A DNA stretch of 64,000 nt from an uncultured Chloroflexia bacterium (lineage in GTDB: Bacteria > Chloroflexota > Anaerolineae > JAAYZQ01): assembly GCA_963700285.1 (NCBI GenBank), contig CAVOXA010000010.1, forward strand, positions 32,001 to 96,000, read 5' to 3'. A program made the translations under genes and the position numbers. This document shows positions 27,641-33,573 of this stretch, in pieces (positions within the stretch are counted from its first letter, which is position 1; each line of letters opens with the position of its first letter). The notes below the pieces were generated by a model. It saw only the letters and a program-made list of their open reading frames with translations, was not told the origin of the DNA and made no database searches.

Positions 27641-30199
27641 CTATTGTAAGCTGATCTGCGAGCCCTGCTCTGTCTTGACCACCTCGATGCGGACCGGAAA
27701 GGCGTCCTTTAGTTCTTCGATGTGGGTGATCACCAGGATGCGGGCGAAATCATCCTGGATGGAATTGATAGCTTCAACGAGGCGGCCCCGCCCCTCAGCA
27801 TCCTGGGTACCAAAACCCTCGTCAATGACCAACAGTTGAAGCTGGGCGCCAGCGCGCCGGGCCAACAGCTTGCTCAAGGCGATGCGGATGGCAAAGTTGA
27901 CGCGAAAAGCTTCTCCTCCCGAAAACAGCTCGTAGGGCCGGGTTCCCAGATCGTCGGCAATGTTGATGTCCAGCGTCTCGACAGTATCGCCCTTGAGCGT
28001 TTCGCGCTGGGTCTCAAAGCGGACGTGCATCCGGCCCTCGGTCATGCGCGATAGCAAGTTGTTGGCCTCAAACTCGATCTCGGGGATGGCTGCTTCGATG
28101 ATCATGGCCTGGATGCCTTTCTTGCCAAATGCCAGGCGCAATTCGTCATAGACAGCCTTTTCCTCGGCCCGCTGCTTGCGGCTGGCCTCGTGCCGCGACC
28201 GTTCCTCGGCCAGATAGTGGCAATGGTCCAGTTTCTGCTGGGCCGCACCCAGGGCAAGGCGGGCCCTGGATGACTGGGCCTGGAGTTCATCGACTCCTCG
28301 TGCTCGAGCCTCAACCTCAACCAACACACCCGGCAAACGAGCCACATCGCTGGCCAGTGACTCCCGCTGCTGCCGGTCATCGGCCAGAGATTTCTGCCAG
28401 CGGCTCTGCCGGGTCAGGAGATCCTGCAACGCGGCACGATCCTCGTCCACTCGCTCTTGGGCGGCCTGGAGCTGCCGGTACAGTTCCTCAAAGTCGCCCA
28501 ATTCGGCAGCCTTGGCCTTGGCTGCCTCGTGGGCAATGCGGTCGTAGCCCAAGCGCTCCAGTTCAACGGACAGCCGGGCGAGTTGGGTCTGCTCATCGAC
28601 GGCATAGTCACCCGCCTGCAGGCGGGCCTGTAGCGCGGATAACTCTGCGCCTACTGAGTCCAGGCCGGTTGAAGCTGCCTGAGCCTCCTTGAGAGCCTGC
28701 TCCAGTTGGGCCTCCTGTCGCTGCACCGCAGTCTGCCCTGAGAGTTCATGCTCTAGCCGGCCTATCTCCGCTTGCAGCCTTTGCTGTTCGCGCTCGATCT
28801 CCCGGCCCCGGGCAGAATTCGCCCGGTAACTGTCAGCCAGCGCTCTGCCCTCGCCTTTGATCTGAGACAGCACCTGGTCTCGGTGATCATCGGACAAAGC
28901 CTGGCCACATACGGGGCATTGCGCTTCGCCTGTCTCCCGTTCCAGCAGTTTCATTCTTTCTTCTAGTTCATCGATCTCGCGGCGAAACTGCTGGTTGTGC
29001 ACTTGCAGGCCCGCAGCTTCCTCGGCCAGGGCCTGACTCTGAGTTCGGGCCCCGTCGCGCTGCGCTCCCTGCCCCGCCAGAAGGTCCAGTCGCTCGCGAA
29101 CCTCAGCAAGCCGGCGCTCGTGGAGCGGCAGTTGCGCGGCCCGGCCATCCAATTCCTGAGCCCGCTCGGCCAGGCGCCCCACCTTCAGATCGAGTTGGTG
29201 GCGGGCTGCATCCACCACGCGCTCCATCTCGTGCTGCCGGGTTCGGAGTCGCGTGTACCGAGCCAGCCTTTCATTCCATGTACCCTCGGCATGGCGGGCC
29301 TTGACCAAAGCAGCGTAGCCCTCCTCAACCTGCCGTCGTTCAGCGAGCAGTCTTTCGTTTGCGCCAATGCGTCGCTGCCGCTCAGAGATCTGCGCCTCAA
29401 TCTCGCCCACTTCCTGCTCGGCGCGGGACATCCGCCGCTCCAGGTCTTGCAGGCGAGCCTGCTGGGATTCGAGTGACTGCTGTTCGTGACGGATTTCCCG
29501 CAGTAGGGTCTCTGCCTCCTTGACCGATGCACTCAAGCCGGCTACGAGTTCCATGGCCCGAGCCAGTTCAACCTTGTACTCGGGCTGGCGAGCCAGTTCC
29601 CGATCTACATCCCGGAGCAGTCCGTCCAACTCCGCCACCTGGCGGTCCTTTTCCTTGGCCCTGTCCTTGGCCCGCTGTTCGTACTCGTCATACAGACTCA
29701 AACCTAGGATATCGCCCAGCACTCGCTTCCGCTCGACTGGCGTCCGGGTAGTAAAAGCGTCGGCCTTGCCCTGTAGCAAAAAGGCCGAATTGGTAAAGGT
29801 CTCATAGTCCATGCGGAGTAGGCGGTCGATGGTCGCCTGCGTAGCACGAATCGTAGGCTCGGCGATGGTACCAAACTGGCCATCGTGCTGAACCTGCAGA
29901 TCCAAAAGGGTACGGCCTCGCTTGGCGCTGTCGCGCTTGCGCAGTACGCGGTAGACCAACCCACCCAGGCCAAAGATGAACTCGACCTCCATCTCCGACT
30001 CGCCGAGATGGATTAGCTCGTCGTCACGCTTGGCGCGGGCCTTGCCCCACAGGACCCAGGTCATGGCATCCAGCAAGGCTGACTTGCCATGGCCATTGGC
30101 TCCCGTCAGACAGGCCAGGTGGATGCCGTCAAAAACCAGGGGCGGCACATTGTCACGATAGCACATAAAGTTGCGGACGCGGAGCTGAAGTGGGATCAA
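27641..30199 (-). CDS. sbcC: SbcC/Rad50 SMC-family ATPase
   Basis: GANGHGKS, coiled coil with CPVC zinc hook, FSGGE, IDEGFG. Confidence 0.92.
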   Translation of the reverse strand: MIPLQLRVRNFMCYRDNVPPLVFDGIHLACLTGANGHGKSALLDAMTWVLWGKARAKRDDELIHLGESEMEVEFIFGLGGLVYRVLRKRDSAKRGRTLLDLQVQHDGQFGTIAEPTIRATQATIDRLLRMDYETFTNSAFLLQGKADAFTTRTPVERKRVLGDILGLSLYDEYEQRAKDRAKEKDRQVAELDGLLRDVDRELARQPEYKVELARAMELVAGLSASVKEAETLLREIRHEQQSLESQQARLQDLERRMSRAEQEVGEIEAQISERQRRIGANERLLAERRQVEEGYAALVKARHAEGTWNERLARYTRLRTRQHEMERVVDAARHQLDLKVGRLAERAQELDGRAAQLPLHERRLAEVRERLDLLAGQGAQRDGARTQSQALAEEAAGLQVHNQQFRREIDELEERMKLLERETGEAQCPVCGQALSDDHRDQVLSQIKGEGRALADSYRANSARGREIEREQQRLQAEIGRLEHELSGQTAVQRQEAQLEQALKEAQAASTGLDSVGAELSALQARLQAGDYAVDEQTQLARLSVELERLGYDRIAHEAAKAKAAELGDFEELYRQLQAAQERVDEDRAALQDLLTRQSRWQKSLADDRQQRESLASDVARLPGVLVEVEARARGVDELQAQSSRARLALGAAQQKLDHCHYLAEERSRHEASRKQRAEEKAVYDELRLAFGKKGIQAMIIEAAIPEIEFEANNLLSRMTEGRMHVRFETQRETLKGDTVETLDINIADDLGTRPYELFSGGEAFRVNFAIRIALSKLLARRAGAQLQLLVIDEGFGTQDAEGRGRLVEAINSIQDDFARILVITHIEELKDAFPVRIEVVKTEQGSQISLQ

Positions 30200-30232
30200 G
30201 GTTCTCTATATCCTCTGTGATCCAAGTAGGGA

Positions 30233-30262
30233 GGCCCCGGCCACACGTACATGGCCGGGGCC
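30233..30262. terminator. Hairpin downstream of tRNA-Gly
   Basis: GGCCCCGGCCA...TGGCCGGGGCC stem. Confidence 0.5.
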
Positions 30263-30273
30263 GTTGCCCAAGC

Positions 30274-30348
<75 letters not shown>

Positions 30349-30386
30349 ACACTCGGGGCGGTCGGTTCCGAACCGGCCGCATGGAA

Positions 30387-30415
30387 AGTATACCCGATTT
30401 CGGTTCCCCTGTCAA
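30387..30415 (-). promoter_or_regulatory. Sigma70 promoter for tRNA-Gly
   Basis: TTGACA-17-TATACT on the minus strand. Confidence 0.75.
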
Positions 30416-30435
30416 CAGGGGTTGCCTACGTCTCA

Positions 30436-30657
30436 CTATTTCTTTGTTGCAGCGTGAACGTACTTGACGGCGTGCTTAAAGACAGCGACCTCCAGACCAT
30501 CTTCTCGCTTTAGAAACAGGGTGTATTGATCGTAGGCCTTGAGTACGCCTTGAACCGCTTTCCCATCCAGGAAAGCGATCAGGACTTCTCTGCCCTTCAG
30601 GCCCTGCAGAAACTGGTTCTGCGTCTGCTTTGGCATCTGGGTTGCTTCACTGGACAT
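30436..30657 (-). CDS. hfq: RNA chaperone Hfq (Sm-like)
   Basis: QNQFL helix, G...QG....DQY Sm1 motif, VFKHAV Sm2 motif; AGGAG RBS. Confidence 0.82.
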   Translation of the reverse strand: MSSEATQMPKQTQNQFLQGLKGREVLIAFLDGKAVQGVLKAYDQYTLFLKREDGLEVAVFKHAVKYVHAATKK

Positions 30658-30693
30658 CTAGATCTCTCCTGGTATTATAGATTTTGTGGGTGG

Positions 30694-30721
30694 TTGACAC
30701 CACCACCATTTGTGATAAGGT
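30694..30721 (+). promoter_or_regulatory. IS-internal promoter upstream of the recombinase
   Basis: TTGACA-16-TAAGGT with extended TG. Confidence 0.55.
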
Positions 30722-30836
30722 ATCTCCGCCCCACCATGTGGCGAGGCCGGAGCCCGTTGAATAAAGCGGGAGACGCACAGGGTGTCTGTCCCGTTCCGGC
30801 CTTAGCAGCGGGGACACCCATTTGGAGGTACCAGCT

Positions 30837-32168
30837 ATGAGCCGAAAGAAACGTACTCACCTGCGGGGTGAGCGAGGACAAGCCTTTGCCAACAAGATTC
30901 GAGGCATACCCTTGGAGCAGATCCTGTGCGTCTCCCTGGACATCCACAAGTACTTTCACGTAGTGATGATCCACAATGCCTTGGGCGAGATTGTGATGTC
31001 GACGTTCGAGATTGACATTTTCCAGACCGGGTTTGATTGTCTGTGCCAGGCCATCGACAGGGCGGTGACTCAGACGAATGCCAAGATTGTCTTGGTCGGC
31101 ATGGAGCCGACCGGGCATTACTTTGAGAGTCTGGCCCGACATCTGAACAACAGACCTCAGCCCGTGACGCTGATCAACAGCTTCGCTGTCAGCAGGAACC
31201 GGGACCAGCAGATGATGCATCGAGAGAAGGATGACGAGATCGATACTGCGGCTATTGGCGACCTGCTGCGCCGCGGCGAGGGCACGCCTTTCCAGCCAGT
31301 CAGTGGCATCTATCTGGAAATGCAGCATCTGTCTCGGGTACGACACAGCAAGGTCAAGATGCGGACTGCGTTGAAGAATCAGATCATCGGGCACCTGGAT
31401 CGTATCTTCCCTGGCTTGGTGATCAAGGGCAAAGTGGCCAGGGATCGCTACCAGCCGCTGTTTGTCACCGATTTCTGGTCGTGCCAGACTCTGCAGCACC
31501 TGATCCGTATCTGTCCTGACCCGGGCAAGTTGGCCGCGATGGCGCCCAAGGACCTGAGAAGTGCTTTCCACGAGCAAGGCTCTTCTATGGGTCCCAAGAC
31601 AGCCGCTAAAATCATCATCTATGCCCAGAAAGTGTTGCTGCCTGATCCCGAAGTGATCGCCATCCGCTCCGAGCTCCTGACTCATGATCTGGCTTTGCTG
31701 GAGGAAGTGGAACGGCACATCACCGAACTGGAGGATCGGTTGCACGCCTTGTTGCAGCAGACGCCCTACTGGGTCTGGACCAAAGTCAGGGGTCTCAGTA
31801 TGACCCAGGTAGCCAACTTGGCGGCCGCTATCGGTGCTCCCAGCCATTACACCTATGCGGCCCAGGTCTTTCGCCGCTCTGGCCTGGTAAGTGGCCGCAA
31901 CGATTCGGGCACTCGCCGGCACAAAGGCAAGGGCAAGCGGGTTGTCAAGACCGGCGACGTCTATTTGCGCCGAGACTTGATGACAGCCATCATCTCTTTG
32001 ATTCGGCATCAGCCTGTCTTGAACGAGTACTTCAAAGAACTCAACCGTACCAAGCATGCCGGTGTCGCTCGCGTGGCCACCGCCCGCAGGGCTATGGGCA
32101 TCCTGTGGGCCATGCAGCGCGATCAGCATTCGCGGACCTTGGTGCTCAAGCGAGGTGCCCAGATGTAG
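30837..32168 (+). CDS. IS110 family recombinase/transposase
   Basis: SLDIHK (D), GMEPTGHY (E), KDDEID (DD); C-terminal SG motif (NDSG) and KTGD..LR; GGAGG RBS. Confidence 0.95.
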   Translation: MSRKKRTHLRGERGQAFANKIRGIPLEQILCVSLDIHKYFHVVMIHNALGEIVMSTFEIDIFQTGFDCLCQAIDRAVTQTNAKIVLVGMEPTGHYFESLARHLNNRPQPVTLINSFAVSRNRDQQMMHREKDDEIDTAAIGDLLRRGEGTPFQPVSGIYLEMQHLSRVRHSKVKMRTALKNQIIGHLDRIFPGLVIKGKVARDRYQPLFVTDFWSCQTLQHLIRICPDPGKLAAMAPKDLRSAFHEQGSSMGPKTAAKIIIYAQKVLLPDPEVIAIRSELLTHDLALLEEVERHITELEDRLHALLQQTPYWVWTKVRGLSMTQVANLAAAIGAPSHYTYAAQVFRRSGLVSGRNDSGTRRHKGKGKRVVKTGDVYLRRDLMTAIISLIRHQPVLNEYFKELNRTKHAGVARVATARRAMGILWAMQRDQHSRTLVLKRGAQM

Positions 32169-32220
32169 ACAACTACGACAGCTTTCGCGTCGCGGGCCAA
32201 CGTCCGTTCGCGTAAACCCT

Positions 32221-32454
32221 ACAACTGAGCCGTTGCCATGGGCAGTGCGCCAGGCGGAACGGGGGTCGGCCGACCTTCTCCTTGAGGTTATCCAGACCCT
32301 CGACCAAAAGCCTGGACCGCCCCCGTTCCGTGGCGCTGAAACCCTGGATAAAGTTTGGTGAGCCCCTGCCTTCGGTACGCTCGAATACCAGGATAGGGAT
32401 AACAGTGCCCGTTGATTGGCCGCTGGCAAACTGTGCCTGCCTCTGTTCAGTTGT
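32221..32454 (+). ncRNA. Predicted IS110 bridge RNA (target- and donor-binding loops)
   Basis: Nested stems 32221-30/32445-54, 32233-38/32424-29, 32240-44/32406-10 and 32247-65/32320-36. The loops carry sequences matching the insertion flanks and the circle junction. Confidence 0.7.
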
Positions 32455-32676
32455 TTGGTATCACTCGTCCGGCTCATATCTGGCCTGCTATTTCGAAAAG
32501 CCTGTCTTTTGCGAGCTATGCTCGTGCACCTTTTCGGCATTCATTGGGAAAGGATTTGACTTCATGATAGTATGCTTTTGGAACCACTGAGACAGCGATT
32601 CCGATGAAATCACGGCATCAATTCTATTCCTCGGAGCTTTCCGCCGAGCCAAAGGGCTCACAACTTCCGAGGTCCG

Positions 32677-33573
32677 TTAGCCTGCAATCAGCAGGCCGAT
32701 GGCTACCAGCACCGGTGTGGCAACGGTCAGGAGGACGTTGTAGCCCAGGTAAGGTATCAGTTTCCCCACATCGTCGGCATAGCGGTATACCCCCAGCGCC
32801 GTGGGAACTGCGACCAAGATGGTGAGGAGACCCAGGAGACTGGCAACAGGCAGCAGCGCCGACAGAACACCAGCGACGATGGTGAGGTAGGTCAGGGAGA
32901 GAAACAAGCCGTAGATGAGACTACTCTTCTTTCTGCCCAGGACGATAGGATAATGCCGCCGGCCCACGCACTCGTCTGCCTCCACGTCGGGGAACTGATT
33001 CAGTAGCAGCAGGTCGCTGACCAGGAAAGTGGGCACCAGTGACGCAACCAAAGCCGTCCAGGTGTATTCGCCAGTGAGGACAAAATCAGTACCCATGACC
33101 ATCAACAACCCAAAGCCAAGACCTGGCGCCATAAGACACAGAAGCGGTGAATGGGTAACCCAGGGCGTATAGGCAACGATGACGAGCACGCCAAGGATCC
33201 CCAGAGGCAGGATAGACCAGCCCCAGACGGCCAGAAAAAAGAGGCCGATCAGGACCGTGACCGTCAGCGCGACTAGGCCAATGGTCAATGCCGAACGCGC
33301 CATCTCGGGCCTGGCGGCTAGGGTGCCACTTCCACCACTGAAGGGAGTGCGCTGAGTCTGGAGGTCCAAACCACTGCGGAAATCAAAGTATTCATTCAGG
33401 GCGTTGACACTAACGTGGGCGGCAGTTGCGCCAACGAAGGCCAGGACAACGTGAACGGGGTCAAGCTGGCCCCGGGTCCAGACGGCTGTACCCACGCCCA
33501 GCAGTACGCAGGCCAGCGGCAGCACAAGAAAAGGCAGGCGCATGGGCCCCAAGAGGGCTTTGGGTGAGTTCAT
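32677..33573 (-). CDS. menA: UbiA-family prenyltransferase (MenA-like)
   Basis: MRLPFL, NALNEYFDF...D, FSGGSG, NQFPDVEAD. Confidence 0.8.
   Translation of the reverse strand: MNSPKALLGPMRLPFLVLPLACVLLGVGTAVWTRGQLDPVHVVLAFVGATAAHVSVNALNEYFDFRSGLDLQTQRTPFSGGSGTLAARPEMARSALTIGLVALTVTVLIGLFFLAVWGWSILPLGILGVLVIVAYTPWVTHSPLLCLMAPGLGFGLLMVMGTDFVLTGEYTWTALVASLVPTFLVSDLLLLNQFPDVEADECVGRRHYPIVLGRKKSSLIYGLFLSLTYLTIVAGVLSALLPVASLLGLLTILVAVPTALGVYRYADDVGKLIPYLGYNVLLTVATPVLVAIGLLIAG

What the first reader, a model, noticed from the sequence alone, without database searches (positions are those of the whole stretch)
32221..32454. Bridge RNA readable directly from sequence: guides match this element's target and donor
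Seen: a multibranch fold of about 234 nt. Loop 1 (stem 32247-65/32320-36, inner hairpin GAGG/CCTC) has TCTCCT (32277-82), identical to the left flank plus core T, and CCAAAAGC (32304-11), the reverse complement of core G plus right flank (GCTTTTGG, 32574-81). Loop 2 (CCCT/AGGG, inner GAGC/GCTC) has AGTTTGGT (32352-59), 7/8 identical to the circle junction AGTA-TG-GT, and AATACCA (32384-90), the reverse complement of TG-GTATT. The following GGA extends pairing to the product junction TCC-TG-GTATT (10/10), as expected for handshake pairing after strand exchange. Knowledge: IS110 recombinases use bispecific bridge RNAs with this LTG/RTG/LDG/RDG layout. Inference: an intact, reprogrammable RNA-guided recombinase with a TG core and an 8-nt right target guide. 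Each match is short, but their order and strand polarity all fit the model.
Basis: partly seen in the sequence, partly recalled or inferred. Interest (0 to 1): 0.88.

Follow-up and report, generated by a model that had tools for sequence, protein, structure and literature searches.

The report
RNA-guided transposon targeting ribosome-binding sites
This jumping gene carries a predicted guide RNA whose sequence tracks the element's landing sites, which are mostly ribosome-binding sites of host genes, and it keeps a stop-free backwards reading frame that would likely let the gene behind it stay expressed.

Summary
An intact IS110-family element (30671-32574, 442-aa recombinase) carries a two-loop RNA in its right end, with compensatory stem changes in 32 aligned relatives. 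The core is the ordinary CT (30669-70, 32575-76), not TG. A congener's empty site overlaps the flanks by exactly CT, and CT follows 45 of 45 right ends. Target guides track insertion sites even within clades. Donor-guide covariation is weak. No expression, circle or activity was shown. Two additions: (1) the clade aims at Shine-Dalgarno sites in reverse orientation (35 of 47 flanks read AGGAG; here hfq). (2) This copy keeps a 600-codon antisense frame ending 4 nt before the rebuilt site. Such frames are open in 16 of 51 relatives, stop-depleted in the non-coding ends, and show no amino-acid constraint. I infer an anti-polarity pass-through. IS900/hed is the precedent, and this scan noted the same idea before on other DNA (e1-8051719). 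A recombinase of this clade is already in the Durrant 2024 catalogue. Verdict: new variant of a known kind.

The parts
30436..30657 (-). Host hfq-like gene (73 aa), directly behind the insertion
   Evidence: ORF; PF17209 Hfq E 6e-9, over the cut-off
30665..30670 (.). Left target (30665-68) plus left CT core (30669-70); on the minus strand 30670-30666 reads AGGAG, the rebuilt Shine-Dalgarno of hfq, 8 nt before its ATG
30671..30836 (+). Left non-coding end (166 nt): right donor arm 30671-76; -10 box TATTAT 30673-78 whose reverse strand holds the antisense stop; TAT half of the 3-bp sub-terminal inverted repeat; second promoter-like site 30694-99/30716-21
   Evidence: promoter function inferred
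30837..32168 (+). IS110-family recombinase, 442 aa; D35, E90, D133, D136 and S357 invariant in 32 aligned relatives
   Evidence: PF01548, PF02371; NF033542 over the cut-off
32255..32409 (+).
   Evidence: no Rfam family matches it
32277..32282 (+). Left target guide: 4 left-target bases + core, anti-Shine-Dalgarno-like
32304..32312 (+). Right target guide 32304-10 (5 target bases + core) and target-loop handshake 32311-12 (first base can pair donor G32574; second mismatches in this copy)
32352..32359 (+). Left donor guide: 5 of 6 to 32569-74, then GT opposite the CT core
32384..32393 (+). Right donor guide 32384-91 (core + 6 left-end bases) and donor-loop handshake GA 32392-93 (can pair target 30667-68)
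30675..32477 (-). Antisense pass-through frame: 600 codons from the conserved ATG at 32477 (open already from 32540) to TAA at 30677-75, 4 nt before the rebuilt AGGAG
   Evidence: translation not shown
32556..32576 (+). Right tip: -35 box TTGACT 32556-61, ATA half of the sub-terminal repeat 32567-69, left donor arm 32570-74, right CT core 32575-76
32577..32581 (+). Right target, 5 bases matched by the right target guide
32677..33573 (-). Host UbiA-family prenyltransferase gene, upstream of hfq on the same strand; adjacent to hfq in the congener that lacks the element

Best explanation
This is a complete IS110-family insertion sequence bounded by CT cores, whose right end encodes a predicted two-loop bridge RNA that likely guides the recombinase to CT-containing Shine-Dalgarno sites, here that of hfq, and whose stop-free antisense frame would likely keep the interrupted host transcript translated. 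SHOWN by sequence: element limits, CT core, empty site, RNA stems, target-guide covariation, Shine-Dalgarno preference, stop depletion in the antisense frame. INFERRED from IS621 work (PMC11208160, PMC11208158): the ends join at CT and form a -35/17-bp/-10 promoter. The transcript runs through the recombinase gene and gives the RNA. The target loop pairs with 4-5 left-target and 3-5 right-target bases around CT. The donor loop pairs with the joined ends. After top-strand exchange the handshake bases pair with the opposite DNA. Because core and left target lie on the gene side, insertion rebuilds AGGAG next to the host start codon. INFERRED and weaker (about 0.45): ribosomes entering at the antisense ATG 97 nt inside the right end cross the 1.8 kb, protect the host transcript from Rho, and stop 4 nt before the rebuilt site. 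The confidence given is for the element and its RNA guidance, not for this last step.
For: Domains and catalytic residues. Empty site in G401, which lacks the element. CT after 45 of 45 right ends, and -35/-10 spacing 17 bp in 45 of 45 where the pattern allowed 16-18. Left guide vs left flank: 205 matches in 37 distinct pairs, permutation mean 149, maximum 185 of 20,000. Right guide vs right flank at +1/+2/+3: 32, 29, 26 of 35 against 19.5, 10.6, 9.5. One-base-shifted controls are null (all). Within clades: right guide 77 of 100 vs 47.1 (0 of 50,000), left guide 65 of 112 vs 49.4 (p 0.002). Left donor guide equals the donor arm in 38 of 43 loci; right donor guide in 40 of 40 at the first four bases, two of them a changed variant. 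Structure. Near-identical copies with other flanks in contigs of runs X1, X2, X6, X15. Shine-Dalgarno: 35 of 47 distinct left flanks read AGGAG; ATG 4-12 nt later in 28 of 47 vs 169 of 1285 control windows. Antisense frame. Rho is encoded in this genome.
Against: No discrete RNA, strand or ends could be shown: all 8 runs laid are contigs. No circle junction was seen in them. Donor-loop covariation is not significant within clades (157 of 160 vs 155.5, p 0.25) and rests on a few changes. This copy's left donor guide has one mismatch to its own donor arm. The base facing the core C is not C in 46 of 48 relatives. Handshake positions are nearly invariant, with one compensatory case counted (L031). 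Some copies fit their guides poorly (L014, L016, L032, L066). 35 of 51 relatives have stops in the antisense frame, and many of them still sit at Shine-Dalgarno sites, so the frame is dispensable.
Confidence: 0.88

Rival explanations
1. One reading: TG core at 30670-71/32573-74 and an 8-nt right target guide.
For: In this copy TG does occur at both ends, and the quoted words match literally.
Against: The empty site overlaps by CT and lacks the 3 extra bases the TG model needs. Most relatives have AG, not TG, at that place in the right end, while CT follows in 45 of 45. TG would give a 14-bp promoter spacer, CT gives 17.
Confidence: 0.01
2. The RNA selects the target only (seekRNA-like); the ends are recognised mainly by the protein through the short inverted repeat, and the second loop is a conserved scaffold.
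For: Donor covariation is not significant within clades. Mismatches are tolerated in the left donor guide in 5 of 43 loci, this copy included, and at the first core base in 46 of 48. ATA/TAT is invariant in 35 of 35 end pairs.
Against: There is an 8-nt right donor match plus a 2-nt handshake in the IS621 geometry. Donor arm and guide change together in L001/L016/L044, L017, L050 and L006/L048.
Confidence: 0.07
3. The element is a relic: the RNA region is inherited but this copy no longer works.
For: It has one full-length copy in the genome and a mismatch between its donor guide and its donor arm. No expression or circle was seen.
Against: The gene is open with all catalytic residues. Contigs identical or nearly identical to the element run into different flanks in other runs, and they carry the same donor arm.
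Confidence: 0.04
4. Sub-rival for the antisense frame only: it is a by-product of GC-rich codon use and shared ancestry, or it encodes a protein of its own (hed-like).
For: The codon-aligned antisense frame is stop-poor in GC-rich genes: 25 of 517 long host ORFs have none. The 16 open copies are related (3 to 5 changes on the tree). The ATG is kept in 20 of 23 closed copies too.
Against: [quoted passage not shown] Open copies differ at a median 51% of four-fold sites. The ATG is in frame in 15 of 16 open vs 6 of 23 closed. Four-fold sites and antisense amino acids diverge equally in open and closed pairs, so there is no protein-level constraint.
Confidence: 0.4

Closest known systems
IS621 / ISCro4 (IS622) bridge recombinases (PMC11208160 passages and section 12; PMC11208158 passages; 10.1101/2025.05.14.653916 passages)
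   Same: PF01548+PF02371 recombinase, CT core, junction promoter, two internal loops in LTG/RTG/LDG/RDG order, short right target guide, handshake bases, short ATA/TAT sub-terminal repeat.
   Different: The RNA lies downstream of the gene, not in the left end. The protein is 442 aa, against 315-330 aa for the IS621 branch (PMC11187229 section 6), and only weakly similar to ISCro4 (E 0.001). The left donor arm is about 5 nt. The target is a Shine-Dalgarno site, not a REP.
IS1111 group / seekRNA elements such as ISEc11 (PMC11187229 passages and section 6)
   Same: Long non-coding region downstream of the gene carrying the guide RNA; junction promoter.
   Different: No 7-17 bp sub-terminal inverted repeat (3 bp invariant); the protein is 442 aa rather than 330-350. 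It fits the IS110-type exceptions with a 3' non-coding region that this paper mentions.
IS900 / IS901 of mycobacteria and the hed ORF (PMC8141618 and PMC2942039 passages; Doran 1997 seen as a reference title only)
   Same: IS110-family element that targets translation-initiation signals and has an ORF on the complementary strand spanning the element.
   Different: IS900/IS901 are described as inserting between Shine-Dalgarno and start codon, and hed as lacking its own start and ribosome-binding site. Here the cut is at the 5' edge of AGGAG, the site is rebuilt next to the host start codon, and the antisense frame has its own conserved ATG and ends at the rebuilt site.
Uncharacterised Chloroflexi recombinase in Durrant 2024 Supplementary Table 1 (row 196)
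   Same: Same clade by inspection of its aligned domains against alignment A1.
   Different: Listed as a tree tip without ISfinder name. I saw no RNA, target or antisense analysis for it in the searched text; the file was cut when stored.

Membership tests
IS110-family bridge recombinase | DEDD RuvC domain plus Tnp domain with catalytic serine | tested here: met
   D35, E90, D133, D136, S357 invariant in 32 of 32; register to ISCro4
IS110-family bridge recombinase | Short core at both ends, single in the empty site | tested here: met
   CT; empty site in G401; 45 of 45 right ends
IS110-family bridge recombinase | Promoter formed by joining right and left ends | tested here: met
   consensus-like -35 and -10 at 17 bp in 45 of 45; sequence only, activity untested
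IS110-family bridge recombinase | Structured RNA with two internal loops in a non-coding end | tested here: met
IS110-family bridge recombinase | Target-loop guides covary with insertion sites | tested here: met
IS110-family bridge recombinase | Donor-loop guides covary with element ends | tested here: inconclusive
   38 of 43 and 40 of 40 match, but p 0.25 within clades
IS110-family bridge recombinase | Handshake bases pair with the non-cognate DNA | tested here: inconclusive
   first base fits in 43 of 43 (target loop) and 39 of 39 (donor loop), second in 36 of 43 and 33 of 39; nearly invariant, one compensatory case
IS110-family bridge recombinase | RNA is expressed and bound; circular intermediate forms | tested here: inconclusive
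   8 runs, contigs only; no strand, ends or circle joint
IS110-family bridge recombinase | Programmable recombination activity | not testable with these tools
   needs an experiment
IS1111 group | Sub-terminal inverted repeats of 7-17 bp | tested here: not met
   3 bp invariant; extension irregular, one further position covaries at p 0.005
IS1111 group | Longer non-coding region downstream of the gene | tested here: met
   406 nt right, 166 nt left
IS1111 group | Recombinase of 330-350 aa | tested here: not met
   442 aa; range from PMC11187229 section 6
IS110 group, long-protein subgroup | Recombinase of 395-455 aa, inverted repeats short or absent | tested here: met
IS110 group, long-protein subgroup | Placement in a tree with ISfinder reference elements | not tested
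   no reference set fetched; nearest plasmid-borne hits are under 32% identical
IS900-like elements | Targets translation-initiation signals; complementary-strand ORF spans the element | tested here: met
IS900-like elements | Insertion between Shine-Dalgarno and start codon; antisense ORF without own start | tested here: not met
   AGGAG stays next to the host ATG; conserved in-frame ATG

The most novel reading that the evidence does not exclude
A Chloroflexota clade of bridge recombinases uses an anti-Shine-Dalgarno-like guide to land at ribosome-binding sites and rebuild them. Several of its lineages keep a 600-codon antisense frame open, not for a protein but as a ribosome conveyor: it crosses the guide RNA, the recombinase gene and both ends, blocks Rho polarity, and hands ribosomes to the host gene. 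This would explain the long-orphan hed-type ORFs.
Probability: 0.45. Interest if true: 0.72.

Novelty: new variant of a known kind. Interest (0 to 1): 0.52.

Why it matters
As a bridge RNA it is one more of tens of thousands predicted (32,190 loci in 10.64898/2026.10.21.760802, section 8). Its value there is a long-protein, downstream-RNA scaffold with about 35 natural guide-target pairs and a corrected register ready for testing. The more interesting part is how an RNA-guided element survives landing inside transcription units. It aims at the motif found before most genes, rebuilds it, and in some lineages keeps a frame open under selection with no protein constraint. That makes the unknown function of IS900's hed ORF directly testable in a harmless system and suggests a design for non-polar insertion cassettes.

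Tried and rejected
TG core, and my own first idea of a one-base G core (note): both rejected by the empty site. Rfam: no family for the RNA (3 matches at E<=1 in 30200-32800: a tRNA and two at chance level). Phylum-wide genome search: only 2 of 401 genomes matched at 1e-40, own genome included; little gained. Reads: 8 runs, all contigs. RNA-run contigs touch parts of the element, including the RNA region, but some run into flanks and give no strand or ends, so they are not used as evidence of expression; no circle joint and no empty-site joint was listed. Promoter scan of the linear element: 1 site vs 1.3 expected, none on the minus strand; no outward promoter for hfq found. The antisense product has no Pfam match over a cut-off and no amino-acid constraint. 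The 'SD-like word before the antisense ATG' count (9 of 12 open vs 5 of 15 closed) is weak, and the script picked an out-of-frame ATG in at least two rows. Possible pairing of a left-end motif with a right-end motif: no compensatory change seen. The MFE closing stem 32249-53/32424-28 did not hold on alignment A2, where that region aligns poorly. One search's left-junction and donor-guide patterns were faulty and were redone. The tree is the quick tree; the careful search did not finish. Literature searches that found no description of Shine-Dalgarno targeting or of an antisense pass-through for bridge-RNA elements: (open-licence library only; two returned nothing). No structure prediction or complex job was run.

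Full report
1. Observation. The 234-nt stretch folds at -99.8 kcal/mol, z -3.2, better than 200 of 200 shuffles. It lies downstream of an ORF at 30837-32168 (442 aa) that matches PF01548 and PF02371 and NF033542 above its cut-off. D35, E90, D133, D136 and S357 are invariant in an alignment of the query with 31 of the 120 listed relatives (695 found). Four of these five (all but D35) align with the equivalent motifs of ISCro4, the only PDB hit (E 0.001). Rfam has no family for the RNA. Named relatives are Anaerolineae/Chloroflexota; that the host belongs there is inferred.

2. The core is CT. A same-genus genome, G401, holds the orthologous locus without the element. Window 29501-30670 and window 32575 onward align to it contiguously at 89-92% identity with a two-base overlap, CT. 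The TG model needs three more bases there. I analysed 66 loci: L001-L070 minus four divergent ones, L060-L063; 25 distant hits, L071-L095, were not examined. The set includes the window, the C16 copy and one duplicate pair. A right end was found in 45; the two bases after it, which the pattern left free, are CT in 45 of 45, and the next base varies. With CT, the -35 box in the right end and the -10 box in the left end come 17 bp apart in 45 of 45 (the pattern allowed 16-18); TG would give 14. The element is thus 30671-32574, with a left end of 166 nt and a right end of 406 nt. An ATA/TAT inverted repeat flanks the donor arms in 35 of 35 distinct end pairs, as described for IS110-group donors (PMC11208160, passage).

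3. The RNA. On 32 aligned right ends (32 of the 43 ends listed) RNAalifold gives two stem-loop-stem arms. For 35 named pairs, 97% of cells pair and 17 pairs show two-sided changes; 0 of 500 shuffles reach that, and slid controls pair 31-48% (the structure was derived from this alignment, which favours it). The supported core is 32255-32409. In the corrected register the left target guide is 4 bases + CT and the right target guide is CT + 5 bases. The left donor guide matches 5 of 6 bases and then has GT opposite CT; the right donor guide is CT + 6 bases. The GA after it can pair with the two target bases left of the core, and the C after the right target guide with the last donor base. This is the geometry described for IS621 (PMC11208158, passages). 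The four words in this order occurred in 0 of 20,000 shuffles.

4. Covariation. Left guide vs left flank, positions -8 to -1, 37 distinct pairs: 205 matches, permutation mean 149, maximum 185 in 20,000. Right guide vs right flank, 35 pairs: 32, 29, 26, 15, 11, 10, 8 at +1 to +7, against 19.5, 10.6, 9.5, 8.6, 8.0, 10.4, 8.0. So the working right guide is 3-4 bases beyond the core, and this copy's 5 is the upper end. One-base shifts give no signal (all). Permuting only within clades of the quick tree keeps the target signal: right 77 of 100 vs 47.1, 0 of 50,000; left 65 of 112 vs 49.4, p 0.002. The donor side is weaker: 38 of 43 left arms and 40 of 40 right arms match, with a few joint changes, but within clades p is 0.25. 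This copy and the C16 copy each mismatch their shared donor arm once. The base facing the core C is G in 42 of 48 and C in only 2. Handshake positions are nearly invariant.

5. Mobility and expression. The genome holds a second copy on C16, 91% identical with near-identical ends, a different target loop and many single-base gaps in the gene. Neighbouring genes on that contig also look split between frames, so the gaps may be assembly errors. Contigs of other runs match the element at 0-8 differences and continue into different flanks, which suggests recent movement. All 8 runs laid are contigs. No circle joint was seen, and RNA-run coverage cannot show a discrete RNA. Low-level expression from linear IS621 copies is documented (PMC13626964 section 5); a second promoter-like site in the left end (23 of 56 left ends) could do this here (inference).

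6. The target is a Shine-Dalgarno site. On the minus strand the left flank reads AGGAG, 8 nt, ATG of an Hfq gene; a UbiA-family gene lies upstream on the same strand. Of 47 distinct left flanks of at least 20 nt, 35 read AGGAG (the AG is fixed by the junction pattern, the GAG is not). An ATG starts 4-12 nt later in 28 of 47 (27 of the 35), against 169 of 1285 control windows. Relatives with other guides sit at other sequences (L027, L030, L058, L059), so the preference comes from the guide. Since core and left target stay on the gene side, the site is rebuilt. IS900 and IS901 are reported to insert at translation signals (PMC2942039 and PMC8141618 passages; Doran 1997 seen as a title only).

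7. Antisense frame. A stop-free frame runs on the minus strand from 32540 to 30675. The codon-aligned antisense frame is open across the gene in 16 of 51 full-length relatives, against 25 of 517 long host ORFs. Open copies need 3-5 changes on the tree and differ at a median 51% of four-fold sites. Independent of that definition, the non-coding ends of 14 open elements (tips excluded) hold 5 stops in this frame against 57 and 74 in the other two; 20 closed elements hold 71, 84, 80. Kinship inflates any p-value here. An ATG 85-107 nt from the right tip is present in 36 of 39 elements and in frame in 15 of 16 open and 6 of 23 closed ones. In 11 of the 14 open elements the frame runs unbroken from it to a stop within 15 nt of the left end; L008, L027 and L030 are broken. 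In the window it is 600 codons and stops inside the -10 box, 4 nt before AGGAG. Four-fold sites and antisense amino acids diverge alike in open and closed pairs, so openness, not a protein, appears selected. The genome encodes Rho. I infer an anti-polarity pass-through (Rho polarity on untranslated RNA is established knowledge, recalled). Against: most relatives lack it, and translation is not shown. I had noted the hed-like ORF before looking (notes). No look-alike notes exist for this sequence.

8. Comparison. It works like IS621/ISCro4 and meets the sequence-testable criteria of an IS110-family bridge recombinase. It is not an IS1111-group member by repeat length or protein size, although its RNA lies downstream; IS110-type elements with a 3' non-coding region are known exceptions (PMC11187229 section 6; PMC11208160 section 12). 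A recombinase of this clade is a tip in Durrant 2024 Supplementary Table 1 (that file was cut when stored and one PDF could not be read). Bridge RNAs have been predicted with covariation for 32,190 loci (10.64898/2026.10.21.760802 section 8; bioRxiv supplements are closed and may hold this clade). Also seen: 10.64898/2026.08.31.748434 (abstract), 10.1101/2025.05.14.653916 (passages), 10.64898/2026.08.14.744561 (passages). Searches found no paper linking a bridge-RNA guide to Shine-Dalgarno targeting or to an antisense pass-through; subscription journals were not searched.

9. Verdict. The RNA alone is an ordinary new member. The Shine-Dalgarno guide and the selected open antisense frame make it a new variant of a known kind. 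Interest 0.52; the conveyor reading has probability 0.45 and would deserve 0.72.

Noticed in passing
G000:C16:5778-7683 (L014): Second copy: ends almost identical to the window's, middle about 90% identical with a different target loop and left donor guide (mosaic). Its site fits the window's right guide (3 bases) better than its own (1), which suggests insertion in trans or later guide change. The shared donor arm is one mismatch from each copy's guide. The gene has many single-base gaps, possibly assembly errors. Its right flank also appears in an RNA-run contig (X15).
   Followed up: partly
L111, L112, L113 (G456): Three solo left-end pieces of about 92 nt, each behind a CTC-CT target, all ending at the same base and followed by unrelated sequence that looks like the middle of genes. 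No matching right end or extra recombinase of this clade was found in that genome. Unexplained: an internal break or recombination hotspot, or an assembly effect.
   Followed up: partly
L016 right junction: The right flank begins like a left end (GGTAT) and does not match the target guide; it resembles donor-type 'half-match' recombination (abstract seen).
   Followed up: no
L022 right end; run X15 contig, window 30802-30913: Deleted derivatives: L022 lacks the right half of the target loop; an X15 contig skips 110 nt including the recombinase start.
   Followed up: no
window 32273-32283: The left target guide resembles the 16S anti-Shine-Dalgarno core (CCUCC, search listing), so the free RNA could pair with mRNA ribosome-binding sites, including that of its own recombinase (30824-28). 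Untested.
   Followed up: no
window about 30767-30780 and 32187-32196: A near-invariant left-end motif (GGGAGACGCAC) and a near-invariant motif just after the stop codon (CGTCGC) could pair over 5 bases; no compensatory change was seen.
   Followed up: partly
window about 32493-32515: Conserved hairpin-like element with A and T runs, 15-40 nt upstream of the antisense ATG on the minus strand and downstream of the guide RNA on the plus strand; may end the RNA or aid ribosome entry.
   Followed up: no
window 30277-30348 (-) and 30436-30657 (-): A tRNA gene follows the hfq-like gene; the congener has about 140 extra bases between them.
   Followed up: no
L031: The left target guide matches its flank over 8 bases but one base out of the usual register, and its donor-loop handshake changed together with the target.
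   Followed up: no
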